A DNA stretch of 58,123 nt. It comes from an uncultured bacterium. Lineage in GTDB: Bacteria > Patescibacteriota > Minisyncoccia > Phycocordibacterales > CAIJYI01. The notes below the pieces were generated by a model. The model saw only the letters and a list, made by a program, of their open reading frames with translations. It made no database searches and was not told the origin of the DNA. Position numbers and translations under genes: made by a program. Location: assembly GCA_903824855.1 (NCBI GenBank), contig CAIJYI010000022.1, positions 1 to 58,123 of the forward strand, read 5' to 3'. Shown in pieces: positions 23,750 to 28,548 of the stretch (positions within the stretch are counted from its first letter, which is position 1; the number at the start of each line of letters is the position of its first letter).

Positions 23750-24205
23750 TTAAATAAAAAGACTTTCGATAACTTCCTTCACGTCAGCGCCTTCAGCTTG
23801 GCCTTTTAATTCTTTCATTACTGCGCCCATGAAAACTCCCATTTTAGATTTATCTAAAACACCGAGTTCTGCTTTTTTAGCGAGAGCAATTTTCAATATC
23901 TCATCTTTGCTCATCATCTTAGGAAGAAAGGTCTCGATTATAGCCAGTTCGGCACGTTCCTTATCTGCGAGTTCCTTTCGGCCGCCGGCTTCAAATTGAG
24001 TAATGGAATCTTTTCGCTGATTCGCTGCACGCTTAATCACTTTTAGGGCATCTTCATCAGGAAGGGAATCTTGGGGAGTGCGTTTTGTTGCGACGAGTTC
24101 ATTAGTGAAAGCGGAAAGAAGCCCGCGCATTGTTTCAAGTCTGAGTGCCTCTCTGGCTAACATTGCTTTTTTAATTTCATCTCGAATTTGTTGTTGTATC
24201 GTCAT
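23750..24205 (-). CDS. GatB/YqeY domain protein
   Basis: 151 aa; typical YqeY sequence (IKKAMLAREALRLETMRGLLSAF...). Confidence 0.85.
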   Translation of the reverse strand: MTIQQQIRDEIKKAMLAREALRLETMRGLLSAFTNELVATKRTPQDSLPDEDALKVIKRAANQRKDSITQFEAGGRKELADKERAELAIIETFLPKMMSKDEILKIALAKKAELGVLDKSKMGVFMGAVMKELKGQAEGADVKEVIESLFI

Positions 24206-24302
24206 AAAATAATGTGTTTTTTATTATGTAAATATTATAACAGAGAGTAGAACATTTGAAAACGGCAGGAAAGTTTTACACTATTCAAGATTATAGCATA
24301 TA

Positions 24303-24336
24303 TGGTATAATCTATTAGTATTAGATAATATCTATT
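24303..24336 (+). promoter_or_regulatory. Extended -10 promoter (TGgTATAAT) and leader palindrome TAGATA-a-TATCTA
   Basis: TGg at 24303-24305, TATAAT at 24306-24311; palindrome at 24322-24334, 7 nt before ATG 24341; no SD. Confidence 0.55.
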
Positions 24337-24340
24337 TGCT

Positions 24341-25882
24341 ATGAAAAAAAACAAAAACGCAGATATCGCAGTTGAAAACTATATCGGAATAATCGGCGGA
24401 TTGATATCTAAACTTCGACTTGAAGTCGGGATGACACAACAGGAGCTTGCGGAAAAAATCGGTTCAACACAAAGTGCGATAGCGAGGATTGAACGAGGTG
24501 AACAAAATATCTCTACGGAAATGGTAGCGAAGATTGAGAACGCTCTTAATAGAAATATAGTTCAGATAGCGAATGGTTCAATAAATATTCGTATAGAAGG
24601 AGGGAGAAAACTTTCCGGAAAGATTGCTACAAAAACATCAAAAAATGGAGCAATGGGTCTTCTTGCTGCATCGCTTCTCAATAAAGATAAGACCACGTTG
24701 AAAAATGTCCCGAAAATTGAGGAGGTAAACAGAATGGTGGAAGTTCTTCAATCAATCGGGGTATCGGTAAAATGGCAGGGAAGTGATCTCGAAATAAAAC
24801 CACCGGAGAAATTTAATCTTGATGCGATAGACGTTGTTGCTGCACAAAAAACGAGAAGTATCGTAATGCTTATCGGTTCACTCATTCATCATTTCAAATC
24901 CTTTAAACTCCCTCAGCCGGGCGGTTGTAAATTAGGTTCTCGTACCGTAAAGCCACATCTTTTTGCTCTGGAAAATTTCGGCGTTCATGTCGCAACGAAA
25001 GAAAAATATTATGAGGTGACGAGTCCAAAACTTCACCCGAGCGAAATTATCCTTTACGAGTCCGGCGATACCGTCACGGAAAATACAATTATTGCTGCCG
25101 CACTCATTCCGGGAACTACCGTTATTAAATATGCTTCGTCAAATTACATGGGGCAGGAGGTTTGTTTTTTTCTGGAGAAATGCGGTGTAAAAATTGAGGG
25201 AATTGGTACGACGACGATAACCGTTCACGGTGTTAAAGAAATAAATACCCCGGTAACATATTTTCTATCAGAGGATCCGATTGAATCAATGTTCTTTATT
25301 GCAACAGCAATAGTGACAAAATCTTCGTTAATCATTGAACGTTGCCCGATTGATTTTCTTGAATTGGAACTCTACAAACTTGAAAAAATGGGTTTCAAAT
25401 ATAAAATTTTAAAACGTTATAAAGCTCTTAACGGAAAAACAAATTTGGTGGATATCCAAACGTTTCCTTCTAACCTTATTGCACTCGAAGAAAAAATAGA
25501 TGCCCGACCATATCCCGGATTAAACATTGATAATCTTCCGTTCTTTGCCGTCATCGCCACACAGGCAAAAGGCCAAACCCTTATACATGATTGGGTTTAT
25601 GAAAAAAGAGCCATTCATACGAAGGATATTGATAAACTTGGCGCCGATACGGTATTAGCAGATCCTCACCGACTCTATATTACGGGGCCGACAAAGCTTC
25701 GCCCTGCGGAGGTTATTTGTCCACCGGCACTTCGTCCTGCCGCTATTCTTCTTATTGGAATGCTCGCAGCCGAAGGTGTTTCCGTATTGCGAAATATTTA
25801 TTCTATCAATCGTGGTTACGAAGATCTTATTGTACGATTAAATACTCTTGGGGCTAGAGTTTCTATTCTCCGCGAATTCTAA
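24341..25882 (+). CDS. murA: XRE-type HTH domain fused to UDP-N-acetylglucosamine 1-carboxyvinyltransferase (MurA)
   Basis: 513 aa. Residues ~17-70 MTQQELAEKIGSTQSAIARIERGEQNIS (HTH_XRE). Residues ~81-513 full-length MurA (KLSGKIATKTSKNGAMGLLAASLL; active-site PGGCKLGSR). Confidence 0.85.
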   Translation: MKKNKNADIAVENYIGIIGGLISKLRLEVGMTQQELAEKIGSTQSAIARIERGEQNISTEMVAKIENALNRNIVQIANGSINIRIEGGRKLSGKIATKTSKNGAMGLLAASLLNKDKTTLKNVPKIEEVNRMVEVLQSIGVSVKWQGSDLEIKPPEKFNLDAIDVVAAQKTRSIVMLIGSLIHHFKSFKLPQPGGCKLGSRTVKPHLFALENFGVHVATKEKYYEVTSPKLHPSEIILYESGDTVTENTIIAAALIPGTTVIKYASSNYMGQEVCFFLEKCGVKIEGIGTTTITVHGVKEINTPVTYFLSEDPIESMFFIATAIVTKSSLIIERCPIDFLELELYKLEKMGFKYKILKRYKALNGKTNLVDIQTFPSNLIALEEKIDARPYPGLNIDNLPFFAVIATQAKGQTLIHDWVYEKRAIHTKDIDKLGADTVLADPHRLYITGPTKLRPAEVICPPALRPAAILLIGMLAAEGVSVLRNIYSINRGYEDLIVRLNTLGARVSILREF

Positions 25883-26013
25883 ATTATTATTTTATTATTA
25901 GTGAAATAATATTGTAGAAGTTTCTCTCTAGTTATCCACAAGTGATAATCTCTTTTGTGATGAATGTGATATTATGGAGTAAAGATCTACGAGAAATAAT
26001 TCTCCTATTAATT

Positions 26014-27303
26014 ATGATAAACAACGAACTTTTAAACTTTATAAAAGAGCGGGTTTCCCAGGGGACAACCAAGGAACAGATTTCTGATATGCTCGTTACT
26101 CATGGAGGTTGGGACGCTAAAGATGTTGATGAAGCATTCGATACTATCGGCCTCTTAGGTTCTTCGATGCCTTCCATTGTGAGTTCAATGACAAAAATGG
26201 CGGATGTGGCAAAAATTTCGACCATTCAAACCCCGGTAGAAGAAAAACCTGTAAACCCAGTCCGTCCTATTAGTATAGGTTTTGATGCGAACACTAAATC
26301 GTTAGCATCTAATTTAAACGTCACAAACCCTGTTCATGTATCTCAACCGATTTCTACTCCTGTCACAATAGTAAGTCCAATTGAAACACCAATTACTGCG
26401 AAGCCCGTTACATCGCCGATAGTTACCAGCCCTCTTACCGCTCCTGCACCGACAATAACCGCCACTCCGGCAGTTGCTGTTTTGCCAATCGTCGAACAAC
26501 ACGAACAAACCCCAATCGCGGTTACTCATATTTCTAAACCGACTGAACCGGTAGTTTCAAATATTTCGTTCAATTCGGAGAAAGTTTCTGATGTCTCTGA
26601 GCCCGAGATGTTCACACAAAAAACACTTGAACCGACCATTCAAACATCACCAATCACCACAGAAAAACCTCGAATTATTCCATCAGCCTCACCTGTAATT
26701 TCACCGACAGACAACGAAAGAAAACCGTCTGCTTCACTAAACACGGGCGTCATTTCAGGGGATACATCACTTGCTGAAATGAGGGCACGCTTTGCTGCAG
26801 GTGCCTCAGTAACACCAGTAACACCTCCAGTAGAAACCTTTCCAAAACAACCGGCTGTTACTTCTTCAATTCAAACCCCGAACGTCGTTAAGACCTCACC
26901 TTTTCAAGAAGTAGCCCCCACTCCAAGTGTGTATCCGGTGTCTCAAAACCCAAACCTTTCCCCTCATACACAATCCGGAATGATTCCGACCATGAACGCT
27001 CAACAATCTTCTCCGTTTTCAACCTCTGCAGTAAAGCCAATTCAACGCTCCGAACCGGCCACTTTTGCCCCGATGCCCGCTCGAAAATTATCCAATGCCG
27101 TCATTTCAAATCAGCCAATGTCGACAGCCTCACGAAAAAATTCCCCTCCAGCAAAAGGAAGAAAATTACTGGCATTCATTATGTTTCTCATTGGTTTAGT
27201 TCTTGGCGCAGTAGCGATGCACGCTTATATAAATGAATATTTTGATCCTGTTATTAACTGGGCGCAAAATAATGTCCCCGGACTACAGAGTCCAACAAGC
27301 TAA
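26014..27303 (+). CDS. P/T/S/V-rich low-complexity protein with C-terminal TM anchor
   Basis: Small N-terminal domain (MINNELLNFIKERVSQGTTKEQISDML..), ~330 aa Pro/Thr/Ser/Val-rich region, TM LLAFIMFLIGLVLGAVAM; start uncertain (track: 25942). Confidence 0.6.
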   Translation: MINNELLNFIKERVSQGTTKEQISDMLVTHGGWDAKDVDEAFDTIGLLGSSMPSIVSSMTKMADVAKISTIQTPVEEKPVNPVRPISIGFDANTKSLASNLNVTNPVHVSQPISTPVTIVSPIETPITAKPVTSPIVTSPLTAPAPTITATPAVAVLPIVEQHEQTPIAVTHISKPTEPVVSNISFNSEKVSDVSEPEMFTQKTLEPTIQTSPITTEKPRIIPSASPVISPTDNERKPSASLNTGVISGDTSLAEMRARFAAGASVTPVTPPVETFPKQPAVTSSIQTPNVVKTSPFQEVAPTPSVYPVSQNPNLSPHTQSGMIPTMNAQQSSPFSTSAVKPIQRSEPATFAPMPARKLSNAVISNQPMSTASRKNSPPAKGRKLLAFIMFLIGLVLGAVAMHAYINEYFDPVINWAQNNVPGLQSPTS

Positions 27304-27344: not shown

Positions 27345-27423
27345 ATTGACAAATAAACAAAAATTCTGTTTACTTATACACAGGTTTGTTATTTTATAAT
27401 AATAATTGAATAGGGAGGTTTTT

Positions 27424-28548
27424 GTGGCTAAGCTTTGGAAGACGGGCGGACCATACTCAGATTTCTTTTTCTCATTTGAAAAGGAGGAGAAACAGGCGAT
27501 TCTCTATATTCGTAATATTGATAGGAAACAATTTATTCGAACTCAACCTGAACTTTTCTCATTTGACTGTTTTTCACTTAAAAATATAAACGAAACGAAG
27601 TGCGATGAAAATCGTTTATGGTTCAATCCTAATCTGAAAAAGGGAAATGCGGGGGTTCTTATTCTTGTTACTTCAAACACAAGAAAGGAGCTAATTGATA
27701 TTCCGGAAAGATTTTTTCATTCCAAGAATGCGCAGGTTTCAAAAAGGGTATATTTACAAGAGGAAGATCTTTTTGATTATTCTTCTCGAGAAGTACAAGG
27801 CGTCGTTTCTCAAATAAATAATACACTTTCAGTCGAGAAAAAAGGCAATCCATATTTTCAAGCGCTCTCAGCACTTCAGTGGTCAAATTGGAATATAAAA
27901 TATTGCCGCGCAACAAAAGAGATGGTAAAAAAACTGGAGAAATCACTTTACCAATATCCAAATCATGATATTTATTCTCTTCTTCTTGAAACGTTTACCT
28001 CAAATGAACTTCCCGGAAACATGAGCGAGATTAAAAAAATTGCATCTGATATAATCGTTCCCGGATATATGACAAAAAATTTTCAGAAGGCATGCTATAT
28101 TCTCAATGAATTTGATAGAAAACATCCGTTTTTTTTGGAGCGATGGCCGTTCGAAAATTATCTCTCAGCAAGTAATACCATTCGCAATCGATTAGGAAAA
28201 TGTGATTGTATAACCCATGTATTTATCGCTCTTTGCAGAGCTATGGGAATTCCGGCAATTAAAATTCTCGGACAATTACATCCCGAAGGATGGCATGCAT
28301 GGGCGTCAATATATCTTCATCCTTTTGGGTGGATTGATGTTGACCCGACGAATAGTTCACGCTTTGAAAAATTTAATCATCGAAGTCATCTTTATCACAT
28401 ACTCGGCCCGCAATTCAAAGGAGAAGTTGATTTTTTACCTCTTGATGAACCGATAACCGACGAGATGATTCATTCATGCAAAAAATTCTATGAGCAATCA
28501 TCCGTGAATCCTTCACTCTATTCATTATTATCATCTATAGAAAAATAG
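27424..28548 (+). CDS. Transglutaminase-like cysteine protease-fold protein
   Basis: GKCDCITHVFIALCRAMGIPA...GWHAWASIY...WIDVDPTN (Cys-His-Asp core); GTG 27424 sits 6 nt after gggagg. Confidence 0.75.
   Translation: MAKLWKTGGPYSDFFFSFEKEEKQAILYIRNIDRKQFIRTQPELFSFDCFSLKNINETKCDENRLWFNPNLKKGNAGVLILVTSNTRKELIDIPERFFHSKNAQVSKRVYLQEEDLFDYSSREVQGVVSQINNTLSVEKKGNPYFQALSALQWSNWNIKYCRATKEMVKKLEKSLYQYPNHDIYSLLLETFTSNELPGNMSEIKKIASDIIVPGYMTKNFQKACYILNEFDRKHPFFLERWPFENYLSASNTIRNRLGKCDCITHVFIALCRAMGIPAIKILGQLHPEGWHAWASIYLHPFGWIDVDPTNSSRFEKFNHRSHLYHILGPQFKGEVDFLPLDEPITDEMIHSCKKFYEQSSVNPSLYSLLSSIEK

What the first reader, a model, noticed from the sequence alone, without database searches (positions are those of the whole stretch)
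24341..25882. XRE-family helix-turn-helix domain fused in-frame to a full-length MurA
The 513-aa ORF begins with about 75 residues that look like an XRE/Cro-type HTH (MTQQELAEKIGSTQSAIARIERGEQNISTEMVAKIENAL). It continues without a stop into a complete enolpyruvyl transferase of about 433 aa, including the catalytic Cys context PGGCKLGSR. MurA catalyses the first committed step of peptidoglycan synthesis and is normally a stand-alone enzyme. A DNA-binding module on it would link cell-wall precursor synthesis to transcription, or tether the enzyme to DNA. The gene has an extended -10 promoter and an SD-less leader containing a palindrome.
Basis: partly seen in the sequence, partly recalled or inferred. 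Interest (0 to 1): 0.62.

Follow-up and report, generated by a model that had tools for sequence, protein, structure and literature searches.

The report
DNA-binding MurA with own operator
The only MurA (first enzyme of cell-wall synthesis) of this tiny lake bacterium carries a built-in DNA-binding domain, and a matching palindromic site covers the gene's own promoter here and in relatives as distant as Streptomyces (where the gene is called murA2), so the enzyme most likely switches off its own gene, a form of cell-wall control I could not find described.

Summary
ORF 24341-25882 is one uninterrupted 513-aa protein: an XRE helix-turn-helix (Pfam HTH_3, aa 22-73, E=2.6e-16), a short linker, and a complete MurA with all catalytic residues. 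It is the only MurA in a complete 1.1-Mb Paceibacteria (CPR) genome that also has MurB.

The fusion is not an oddity of this genome. About 11% of 401 sampled Patescibacteria genomes carry it, and so do cultured actinomycetes. Streptomyces "murA2" (SCO5998) is the same 509-aa fusion.

It is a dyad on the promoter, ATAGCATATATGGTAT (24293-24308, extending to a 26-bp palindrome at 24288-24313), which overlaps the extended -10 box.

- A matrix trained only on other genomes ranks this site first in the whole genome.
- The dyad is invariant among close relatives whose intergenic DNA has otherwise diverged.
- It is present upstream of 36/48 fused genes and 0/25 unfused genes.
- It is lost whenever the HTH is lost or its recognition helix diverges.
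- It recurs at -28 in 80/80 actinomycete loci.

Best reading: a bifunctional enzyme-autorepressor (confidence about 0.75). Binding and repression are inferred, not shown at the bench.

The parts
24341..25882 (+). HTH-MurA gene: one 513-aa ORF, stop codon included
   Evidence: All of the top 120 homologues (69-86% identity) carry both Pfam domains.
24404..24559 (+). XRE/Cro-C1-type helix-turn-helix domain (aa 22-73)
   Evidence: Pfam HTH_3, E=2.6e-16. AF2 helices H7-28, H33-40, H44-51 and H59-69, with pLDDT about 63-91. Nearest solved relatives are restriction-modification controller proteins, 434 repressor, ClgR, SinR and HipB.
24470..24493 (+). Predicted recognition helix (aa 44-51, QSAIARIE)
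   Evidence: Q44, S45, A48, R49, E51, G53, Q55 and N56 are invariant in 69 homologues. The motif TSQSA[VI][AN]R[MI]E is conserved across Patescibacteria and actinomycetes.
24548..24580 (+). Short linker between the HTH and MurA (aa 70-80)
   Evidence: Low pLDDT, with aa 75-78 below 50. The spacing from the QN motif to the MurA SKN motif is 46 +/- 1 residues in 116/116 fused proteins.
24584..25867 (+). MurA (UDP-GlcNAc 1-carboxyvinyltransferase) moiety, aa 82-509; catalytic Cys196 codon at 24926-24928
   Evidence: NF006873: 321 bits against a cut-off of 297. Foldseek TM 0.84-0.91, normalised to target, against solved MurAs. K101, N102, R172, C196, R201, D397, R465 and R491 are invariant. It is the only PF00275 hit in the genome.
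24293..24308 (.). Core 16-bp dyad ATAGCA-TATA-TGGTAT, the predicted operator of the fused HTH
   Evidence: Top PWM hit of the entire 1.1-Mb genome, with a matrix trained only on other genomes. The block is invariant in four close relatives although the intergenic mean identity is 56%. The family consensus is ATATCA-TATA-TGATAT.
24288..24313 (.). Extended 26-bp palindrome AGATTATAGCATA|TATGGTATAATCT (one mismatched pair)
   Evidence: It arises in 20 of 20,000 shuffles of the intergenic region. The genome holds 51 such palindromes, mostly GC-cored terminator hairpins.
24303..24311 (+). Extended -10 box TGgTATAAT (hexamer at 24306-24311), overlapped by the right arm of the dyad; a weak -35-like TTCAAG lies at 24284-24289
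   Evidence: Read directly from the sequence. TGnTATAAT is invariant in the relatives. The generic promoter scan missed this promoter because its -35 is weak.

Best explanation
HTH-MurA is one polypeptide with two jobs. Its C-terminal 430 residues are an active MurA and supply the cell's only enolpyruvyl-UDP-GlcNAc. Its N-terminal XRE helix-turn-helix, held on a short linker of fixed length, recognises a palindromic operator (here 24293-24308, extended 24288-24313). That operator fills the spacer of the gene's own promoter and overlaps its -10 box. Two HTH domains (a dimer, as in 434 repressor and controller proteins) would bind the two half-sites, exclude RNA polymerase and repress murA. The concentration of the enzyme would then set the rate of its own synthesis, which is negative autoregulation. 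Shown here: the architecture, intact catalytic residues, conservation of the recognition helix, and the conservation, position, genome-wide uniqueness and co-evolution of the dyad. Inferred: physical binding, dimerisation and the sign of regulation.
For: (1) The domains and the frame are real, the fold is MurA, the catalytic residues are invariant, and this is the sole MurA in a genome that has MurB.
(2) A shared dyad, ATATCA-N4-TGATAT, lies between the -35 and -10 boxes upstream of fused genes.
(3) A PWM trained without this genome ranks 24293 first among about 2.2 million positions. The next hits lie inside secA or beside ksgA and a permease, so there is no regulon.
(4) Footprint: TATAGCATATATGnTATAAT is invariant in four relatives whose intergenic DNA is only 56% identical, and in one of them it is a perfect 16-bp palindrome.
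(5) A site of at least 15 bits is found upstream of 36/48 fused genes and 0/25 unfused genes. For held-out loci the figures are 13/25 against 0/25, Fisher p=2.9e-5.
(6) The tree needs at least 9-11 fused/unfused transitions, and each unfused sister lacks the dyad. Only 1/25 unfused loci has any HTH ORF nearby.
(7) All four fused proteins with a diverged recognition helix lack the dyad.
(8) An independent high-GC lineage agrees: 80/80 actinomycete loci have ATCTCATATsTGAGAT at -27/-28 from the start codon, and it is the best PWM hit of each 4.5-kb locus.
(9) S. coelicolor murA2 (SCO5998) is listed as a leaderless transcript (PMC4895711, Suppl. Data 2). By extrapolation from the 80 other actinomycete loci (the S. 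coelicolor sequence itself was not read), this places the dyad at about -28 to -13 from the mapped TSS, against the -10 box.
(10) The closest solved HTHs are dimeric palindrome binders that autoregulate.
(11) The dyad occurs with co-directional upstream genes in 12 of 36 loci, several of them directly after a terminator, so it is not a by-product of divergent promoters.
Against: There is no biochemical or genetic test of binding or repression. Whether this protein dimerises is untested, and I recall E. coli MurA being described as monomeric, so the dimer interface is unknown. The right arm of the dyad coincides with an extended -10 box (TGnTATAAT), so part of its conservation is promoter conservation. 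Only the left arm and the symmetry are specific evidence. The PWM instances were picked with a consensus in mind, and the loci are phylogenetically related, so the p-values are optimistic. Of the 48 fused genes, 12 lack a strong site; about 5 of these have a degenerate dyad at the same position. The site in this window is imperfect (14/16 to the consensus, with one G/G mismatch). No RNA data were available for this organism.
Confidence: 0.75

Rival explanations
1. The protein does bind the dyad, but it is mainly a metabolite-gated switch (a true trigger enzyme). The open/closed state of MurA, or its complex with UDP-MurNAc, PEP or UDP-GlcNAc, would control DNA binding, so that transcription follows precursor pools and not just protein level.
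For: The linker is short and of nearly invariant length, 46 +/- 1 residues between motifs in 116/116 proteins, which suits mechanical coupling. From established knowledge: MurA undergoes large domain closure and binds its pathway product UDP-MurNAc tightly (PDB entries 3su9, 3swd and 6q03 are listed). BirA, PutA and NadR work this way.
Against: Nothing in the sequence data separates this from plain autorepression. AF2 gives low confidence for the linker and shows no docked HTH-MurA interface. This refines the best explanation and does not exclude it.
Confidence: 0.25
2. The HTH is not a sequence-specific regulator of murA. It would serve another role (protein-protein contact, a non-specific nucleoid tether, or a vestige), and the promoter palindrome would be bound by another factor or by none.
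For: HTH loss is tolerated repeatedly, with at least 7-9 losses, so the domain is dispensable for the enzyme. There is no direct binding evidence.
Against: The recognition helix is nearly invariant across two phyla. The dyad disappears each time the HTH is lost or its helix diverges. The dyad is the single best site in the genome. A vestige would not keep Q44, S45, R49, E51, G53, Q55 and N56 invariant.
Confidence: 0.08
3. The palindrome is only a promoter feature, namely two back-to-back extended -10 boxes of a bidirectional promoter, and not an operator.
For: In this window the left arm read on the minus strand is TGcTATAAT, and the upstream gene (yqeY, 23750-24205) is divergent. In 24 of 36 operator-bearing loci the upstream ORF is divergent.
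Against: In 12 of 36 loci the upstream gene is co-directional, several with a terminator hairpin directly before the dyad. Unfused murA genes of the same subfamily have promoters but no dyad, 0/25. A separate promoter-like site for yqeY exists at 24234-24262. In actinomycetes the half-site TGAGAT is not a -10 consensus.
Confidence: 0.05
4. The HTH-MurA activates its own promoter instead of repressing it, or it controls a wider cell-wall regulon.
For: The -35 here is weak (TTCAAG), so an activator is conceivable. Regulons cannot be excluded in other species.
Against: The site covers the spacer and the -10 box, the classic position for repression. The promoters have extended -10 boxes and often a good TTGACA. 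In this genome no other promoter-placed site scores near the murA site.
Confidence: 0.08

Closest known systems
Streptomyces MurA2 (SCO5998 / sven5810 / vnz_28735)
   Same: It has the same architecture (509 aa, HTH_3 + EPSP_synthase). The Nonomuraea orthologue is 53% identical to the window's protein over the full length, HTH included. The recognition-helix motif, the linker length and the 6-4-6 dyad at the promoter are the same. The actinomycete clade nests inside the Patescibacteria clade.
   Different: In actinomycetes it is a second MurA beside a canonical one, and it is developmentally controlled by BldM-WhiI (PMC4125116). Here it is the only MurA. The half-site is ATCTCA there and ATAGCA or ATATCA here. 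The transcript is leaderless there (PMC4895711), whereas this window has an SD-less leader of about 23 nt. The papers I could read treat murA2 as an ordinary MurA paralogue and mention neither the HTH nor self-regulation.
Bifunctional enzyme-repressors ('trigger enzymes' with a fused DNA-binding domain): BirA, PutA, NadR
   Same: One polypeptide combines a metabolic enzyme with a DNA-binding domain that acts at the promoter of its own gene or pathway.
   Different: The enzyme is different (an enolpyruvyl transferase of peptidoglycan synthesis) and so is the DNA-binding fold family (XRE/Cro-C1, against winged-helix in BirA and ribbon-helix-helix in PutA). Ligand control of DNA binding, which defines those systems, is untested here.
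XRE-family autorepressors: 434 repressor/Cro and restriction-modification controller (C) proteins such as C.Esp1396I and C.BclI
   Same: They are the closest solved HTH sequences. They bind as dimers to 14-20-bp palindromes that overlap their own promoters.
   Different: Those are small stand-alone regulators, or regulators with a dedicated oligomerisation domain. Here the C-terminal partner is a 430-aa essential enzyme.
Known post-translational controls of MurA: ClpCP/ReoM/PASTA-kinase control of MurAA in Firmicutes, and feedback by UDP-MurNAc
   Same: [quoted passage not shown]
   Different: Those act on protein stability or activity through separate partners (for example PMC12077105, listed). 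Here control would be transcriptional and built into the enzyme itself.

Membership tests
MurA (UDP-N-acetylglucosamine 1-carboxyvinyltransferase, EC 2.5.1.7) | Profile match above curated cut-offs | tested here: met
   The NF006873 subfamily model scores 321 bits against a cut-off of 297. The strict equivalog TIGR01072 scores 314 bits, below its cut-off of 392.7, so this is a divergent subfamily.
MurA (UDP-N-acetylglucosamine 1-carboxyvinyltransferase, EC 2.5.1.7) | Two-domain inside-out alpha/beta barrel fold of enolpyruvyl transferases | tested here: met
   AF2 mean pLDDT is 86.9. Foldseek against solved MurAs gives E down to 1e-39 and TM 0.84-0.91.
MurA (UDP-N-acetylglucosamine 1-carboxyvinyltransferase, EC 2.5.1.7) | Catalytic residues (E. 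coli numbering Lys22, Cys115, Arg120, Asp305, Arg371, Arg397) | tested here: met
   K101, C196, R201, D397, R465 and R491 are present here and invariant in 69 homologues.
MurA (UDP-N-acetylglucosamine 1-carboxyvinyltransferase, EC 2.5.1.7) | Enzymatic activity and a physiological role in peptidoglycan synthesis | not testable with these tools
   Indirect support only: it is the only PF00275 protein in a 100%-complete genome, and MurB is present.
XRE / Cro-C1 helix-turn-helix (Pfam HTH_3, PF01381) | Profile match above the gathering score, and a five-helix fold | tested here: met
   59.8 bits against a cut-off of 23. AF2 places helices where expected. PDB relatives are 434 repressor and controller proteins.
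XRE / Cro-C1 helix-turn-helix (Pfam HTH_3, PF01381) | Sequence-specific binding, as a dimer, to a palindromic operator | not testable with these tools
   Comparative support only: a conserved dyad, co-loss of the dyad with the HTH, and helix/operator covariation.
Bifunctional enzyme-repressors (BirA / PutA / NadR type) | A DNA-binding domain and a catalytic domain in one polypeptide | tested here: met
Bifunctional enzyme-repressors (BirA / PutA / NadR type) | An operator at the promoter of its own gene or pathway | tested here: met
   The dyad lies on the spacer and -10 box of its own promoter in two phyla. TSS support comes from the leaderless SCO5998 transcript.
Bifunctional enzyme-repressors (BirA / PutA / NadR type) | DNA binding switched by the enzyme's substrate, product or catalytic state | not testable with these tools
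   No data. The fixed linker length is only suggestive.
Streptomyces MurA2 orthologous group | Full-length similarity including the HTH, shared subfamily insertion, phylogenetic nesting | tested here: met
   53% identity over 507 residues. The 11-residue insertion (around aa 358-368) is shared by the whole subfamily. The tree supports nesting. Synteny of the S. venezuelae gene with aconitase matches SCO5998/SCO5999.

The most novel reading that the evidence does not exclude
HTH-MurA is a one-protein feedback loop that senses cell-wall precursor status. Domain closure of the MurA body on UDP-GlcNAc and PEP, or its dormant complex with the pathway product UDP-MurNAc, would reposition the rigidly linked HTH domains and so gate operator binding. 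Transcription of the first committed peptidoglycan gene would then track metabolite pools directly. On this reading the module was invented in Patescibacteria and later captured by actinomycetes as the developmental gene murA2.
Probability: 0.25. Interest if true: 0.85.

Novelty: new variant of a known kind. Interest (0 to 1): 0.7.

Why it matters
Control of MurA sets the flux into peptidoglycan. It is an active research topic (proteolysis and kinase control in Firmicutes, product feedback), and MurA is an antibiotic target (fosfomycin). A MurA that carries its own repressor domain would be a new and very economical solution. It would also be one of the few predicted transcription-factor/operator pairs in CPR bacteria, which have few regulators and cannot yet be grown alone. 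The same module is Streptomyces murA2, so the hypothesis can be tested directly in a tractable laboratory organism, and it would reinterpret a gene already known as a sporulation-stage target. The nesting of actinomycete murA2 inside Patescibacteria diversity also points to gene flow from CPR bacteria into actinomycetes.

Tried and rejected
1. The leader palindrome TAGATAaTATCTA (24322-24334) as the operator. It is not conserved in four close relatives, and 36% of shuffles of the intergenic region give one as good.
2. A frameshift or two-gene artefact. This is rejected by the open frame and by the same frame in hundreds of genomes.
3. Split forms, that is a separate HTH gene next to unfused murA. 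Only 1 of 25 unfused loci has any HTH ORF within 1.5 kb.
4. A regulon in this genome. The next-best PWM hits lie inside secA or other coding DNA, or beside ksgA and a permease.
5. A bidirectional-promoter origin of the palindrome. Rejected; see the rival explanations.
6. RNA evidence. Streptomyces RNA-seq contigs did not map at 95% identity or better, and this organism is found only in lake-water DNA runs.
7. The 11-residue MurA insertion as a fusion-specific dimerisation element. It is present in the basal unfused members too, so it marks the subfamily and not the fusion.
8. Literature searches for a description of the fusion. None was found. An apparent hit in an XRE-motif paper was only an author name.
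9. The generic promoter scan did not call this promoter because its -35 is weak. The promoter is inferred from the conserved extended -10 box.
Full report
OBSERVATION. The ORF at 24341-25882 (+) is a single open frame of 513 aa. Pfam finds HTH_3 at aa 22-73 (E=2.6e-16, 59.8 bits, cut-off 23) and EPSP_synthase at aa 86-497 (E=1.4e-44). NCBIfam places aa 82-509 in the MurA subfamily model NF006873 (321 bits, cut-off 297). The score falls below the strict equivalog TIGR01072 (314 against 392.7), which marks a divergent MurA. The AlphaFold2 model (mean pLDDT 86.9, pTM 0.80) has a helical N-terminal domain (H7-28, H33-40, H44-51, H59-69), a low-confidence linker (aa 70-80) and a MurA body. That body superposes on solved MurAs with TM 0.84-0.91. 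No solved MurA covers the first ~75 residues. The catalytic residues K101, N102, R172, C196, R201, D397, R465 and R491 are present and invariant in 69 homologues. The genome (1.106 Mb, 45 contigs, 100% complete) has no other PF00275 protein and does encode MurB. This protein is therefore almost certainly the working MurA of the cell. The organism is a Paceibacteria-type member of Patescibacteria (source names) from lake water.

DISTRIBUTION. All 120 best database hits (69-86% identity, about 500-520 aa) carry both domains. In 401 genomes sampled evenly from the phylum, 369 have a MurA, nearly always exactly one. The scores are bimodal. About 68 genomes have this divergent type (at least 426 bits, 45-65% identity), and about 300 have a canonical MurA (268 bits or less, about 35% identity) with no HTH. 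By my count from the listed matches, about 44 of the divergent type are fused and about 24 are not.

A junction-spanning search of 1.8 billion representatives found more distant full-length fusions. One cluster of these comes from Nonomuraea. The Nonomuraea protein is 53% identical to the window's protein over 507 residues, HTH included. A scan of species-representative genomes with it gave at least 593 matches. The 80 loci kept are from Nonomuraea, Streptomyces (including S. venezuelae ATCC 10712 and S. rimosus), Kitasatospora and Actinacidiphila.

The S. venezuelae gene (509 aa, HTH_3 E=3e-13) lies divergent from aconitase. This is the published arrangement of murA2 (SCO5998) and acnA (SCO5999) (PMC12161575). 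SCO5998 is 1530 nt, which is 509 aa (PMC4895711). Streptomyces MurA2 is therefore this fusion. S. venezuelae also has a canonical MurA (434 bits on TIGR01072, against 301 for MurA2).

THE DNA TARGET. I extracted the upstream regions of 28 fused genes without assuming a motif. They share a dyad, consensus ATATCA-TATA-TGATAT, usually placed TTGACA-N(3-5)-[dyad]-AAT, so it fills the promoter spacer and its right arm forms an extended -10 box. In this window the homologous site is ATAGCATATATGGTAT (24293-24308), whose right arm is part of TGgTATAAT (24303-11). It extends to a 26-bp palindrome, AGATTATAGCATA|TATGGTATAATCT (24288-24313), with one mismatched pair. Such a palindrome arises in 20 of 20,000 shuffles of the intergenic region.

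Six independent tests support a functional operator recognised by the fused HTH.
(a) A weight matrix trained on 23 sites from other genomes only ranks 24293 first among all positions of the 1.1-Mb genome (18.2 bits). The runners-up lie inside secA or other coding DNA, or beside unrelated genes.
(b) Among four relatives with proteins 77-86% identical, the intergenic DNA has a mean identity of 56%, yet TATAGCATATATGnTATAAT is invariant. In one relative it is a perfect palindrome, ATAGCATATATGCTAT.
(c) A site of at least 15 bits within 200 nt upstream occurs in 36/48 fused genes and 0/25 unfused genes. For loci not used in training the figures are 13/25 against 0/25 (Fisher p=2.9e-5).
(d) A maximum-likelihood tree of the MurA moiety needs at least 9-11 fused/unfused transitions, and in each sister pair the unfused member lacks the dyad. 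Only 1 of 25 unfused loci has any HTH-like ORF nearby, so these are losses and not gene splits.
(e) The four fused proteins whose recognition helix has diverged from TSQSA[VI][AN]R[MI]E all lack the dyad. The subclade with [ST]TQS, which includes this window, carries ATAGCA instead of ATATCA.
(f) In 80/80 actinomycete loci (67-74% GC) the dyad ATCTCATATsTGAGAT lies at -27/-28 from the start codon and is the best matrix hit of each 4.5-kb locus.

One published experimental datum fixes the geometry. S. coelicolor murA2 is listed among leaderless transcripts (PMC4895711, Supplementary Data 2), so its TSS is the start codon. The dyad would then span about -28 to -13, abutting a TAnnnT -10 box at -13 to -8. 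I read this arrangement from the S. venezuelae sequence and extrapolate it to S. coelicolor, whose sequence I did not hold.

TAGATAaTATCTA (24322-24334) exists. The region between the -10 box and the ATG is not conserved in close relatives, and 36% of shuffles of the intergenic region (5% for the 29-nt leader alone) contain an equal or better palindrome. I treat it as chance. The leader (about 23 nt from the inferred TSS) indeed lacks a Shine-Dalgarno sequence. Many relatives place the dyad 25-30 nt before the start codon and are probably leaderless.

MECHANISM. The nearest solved HTH domains are restriction-modification controller proteins, 434 repressor, ClgR, SinR and HipB. From established knowledge, these are dimeric binders of palindromes, and many repress their own promoters. 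A 6-4-6 dyad puts the half-site centres about one helical turn apart, which suits a dimer. A site covering the spacer and -10 box predicts repression by exclusion of RNA polymerase. I therefore read HTH-MurA as an enzyme that represses its own gene (confidence 0.75).

The distance between the HTH and the MurA active-site lysine motif is 46 +/- 1 residues in 116/116 fused proteins of both phyla. This is compatible with coupling between the state of the enzyme and DNA binding but does not demonstrate it. That stronger trigger-enzyme reading gets 0.25.

The bidirectional-promoter rival arises because the left arm mirrors the -10 box. Three observations weaken it. In 12 of 36 loci the upstream gene is co-directional, some with a terminator right before the dyad. 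Unfused genes of the same subfamily lack the dyad. The actinomycete half-site is not a -10 consensus.

EVOLUTION. Rooted on canonical MurAs, the basal lineages of the divergent subfamily are unfused. The HTH appears once, at the base of a 66-sequence clade, and is then lost at least seven times. The tight actinomycete group nests inside one Patescibacteria subclade (SH-like support 0.92-0.98, FastTree). This suggests transfer from CPR bacteria to actinomycetes of the gene together with its operator. An 11-residue insertion (around aa 358-368, with invariant Y360 and N364) marks the whole subfamily, fused or not.

KNOWN OR NEW. Databases annotate these proteins as MurA or as 'helix-turn-helix domain-containing protein'. 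Streptomyces murA2 is known as a second MurA and a BldM-WhiI target (PMC4125116), is a predicted DmdR1 target (PMC12161575), and has been overexpressed in S. venezuelae (PMC11005364 / bioRxiv 10.1101/2023.08.23.554472). None of the passages I read mentions the HTH or self-regulation, and targeted searches found no description. Many subscription papers are not in the searchable library. Enzyme-repressor fusions as a class are known (BirA, PutA, NadR). I therefore rate this a new variant of a known kind.

LIMITS. All functional claims rest on comparative sequence evidence plus one published TSS annotation. The matrix instances were chosen with a consensus in mind. Related loci are not independent. 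The counts of fused and unfused genomes come from one even sample of 400 genomes. The oligomeric state and the sign of regulation are inferred. Earlier notes of this scan on other genomes proposed the same idea. I used them as leads only and re-derived each point here.

Noticed in passing
L077-L156 (actinomycete loci) against L009-L068; tree: The whole actinomycete MurA2 group nests deep inside one Patescibacteria subclade (family code f28). The recognition-helix region is nearly identical between them (TSQSA[VI]NRIE.G.QNISLEM[IL]ARI). This suggests horizontal transfer of the gene and its operator from CPR bacteria into actinomycetes.
   Followed up: partly
window 24341-25882, aa 356-378; alignment: An insertion of about 11 residues (Y-x-[SA]-x-N-G-x-T-x-L-V-D) relative to canonical MurA, holding invariant Y360 and N364, marks the whole divergent MurA subfamily, including its unfused basal members. 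Its role is unknown.
   Followed up: partly
window 25942-27303 (+): The gene downstream of murA encodes a 453-aa protein rich in Pro, Thr, Ser and Val, with a hydrophobic C-terminal segment and no Pfam match. A protein of similar size with no Pfam match holds the same position in close relatives (L032, L034). A transglutaminase-core protein follows it (27406-28548).
   Followed up: partly
L005, L006, L008 (family code f33), 72-95 nt upstream of the start codon: These loci carry the best dyad further upstream, just after a terminator, plus a second dyad-like element near the start codon (for example GATATATATCAT). They may have two operators.
   Followed up: no
L002, L032-L035, L062 against the other fused loci: There is possible specificity covariation. 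Proteins with [ST]-T-Q-S at the start of the recognition helix have the half-site ATAGCA, while T-S-Q-S proteins have ATATCA, ATACCA or ATCTCA. L007 is an exception.
   Followed up: partly
own genome, contig C8, centres at 603, 1277, 1977 and 2830 (outside the window): The near-identical 26-bp palindrome GGTAGTCCTGTGT|ACACAGGACTACC recurs four times at intervals of about 700-850 bp on one contig. It is a repeated element of unknown nature.
   Followed up: no
own genome: The genome has only one EPSP-synthase-family protein, so it has no AroA. This fits the reduced biosynthetic capacity of CPR bacteria.
   Followed up: no
L037 (G261), + strand 359-1045, upstream of an unfused murA: This is the only unfused locus with a nearby HTH-like ORF (32 bits to the family HTH profile, within an open frame of about 229 aa). 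It could be an unrelated XRE gene or a relic.
   Followed up: no
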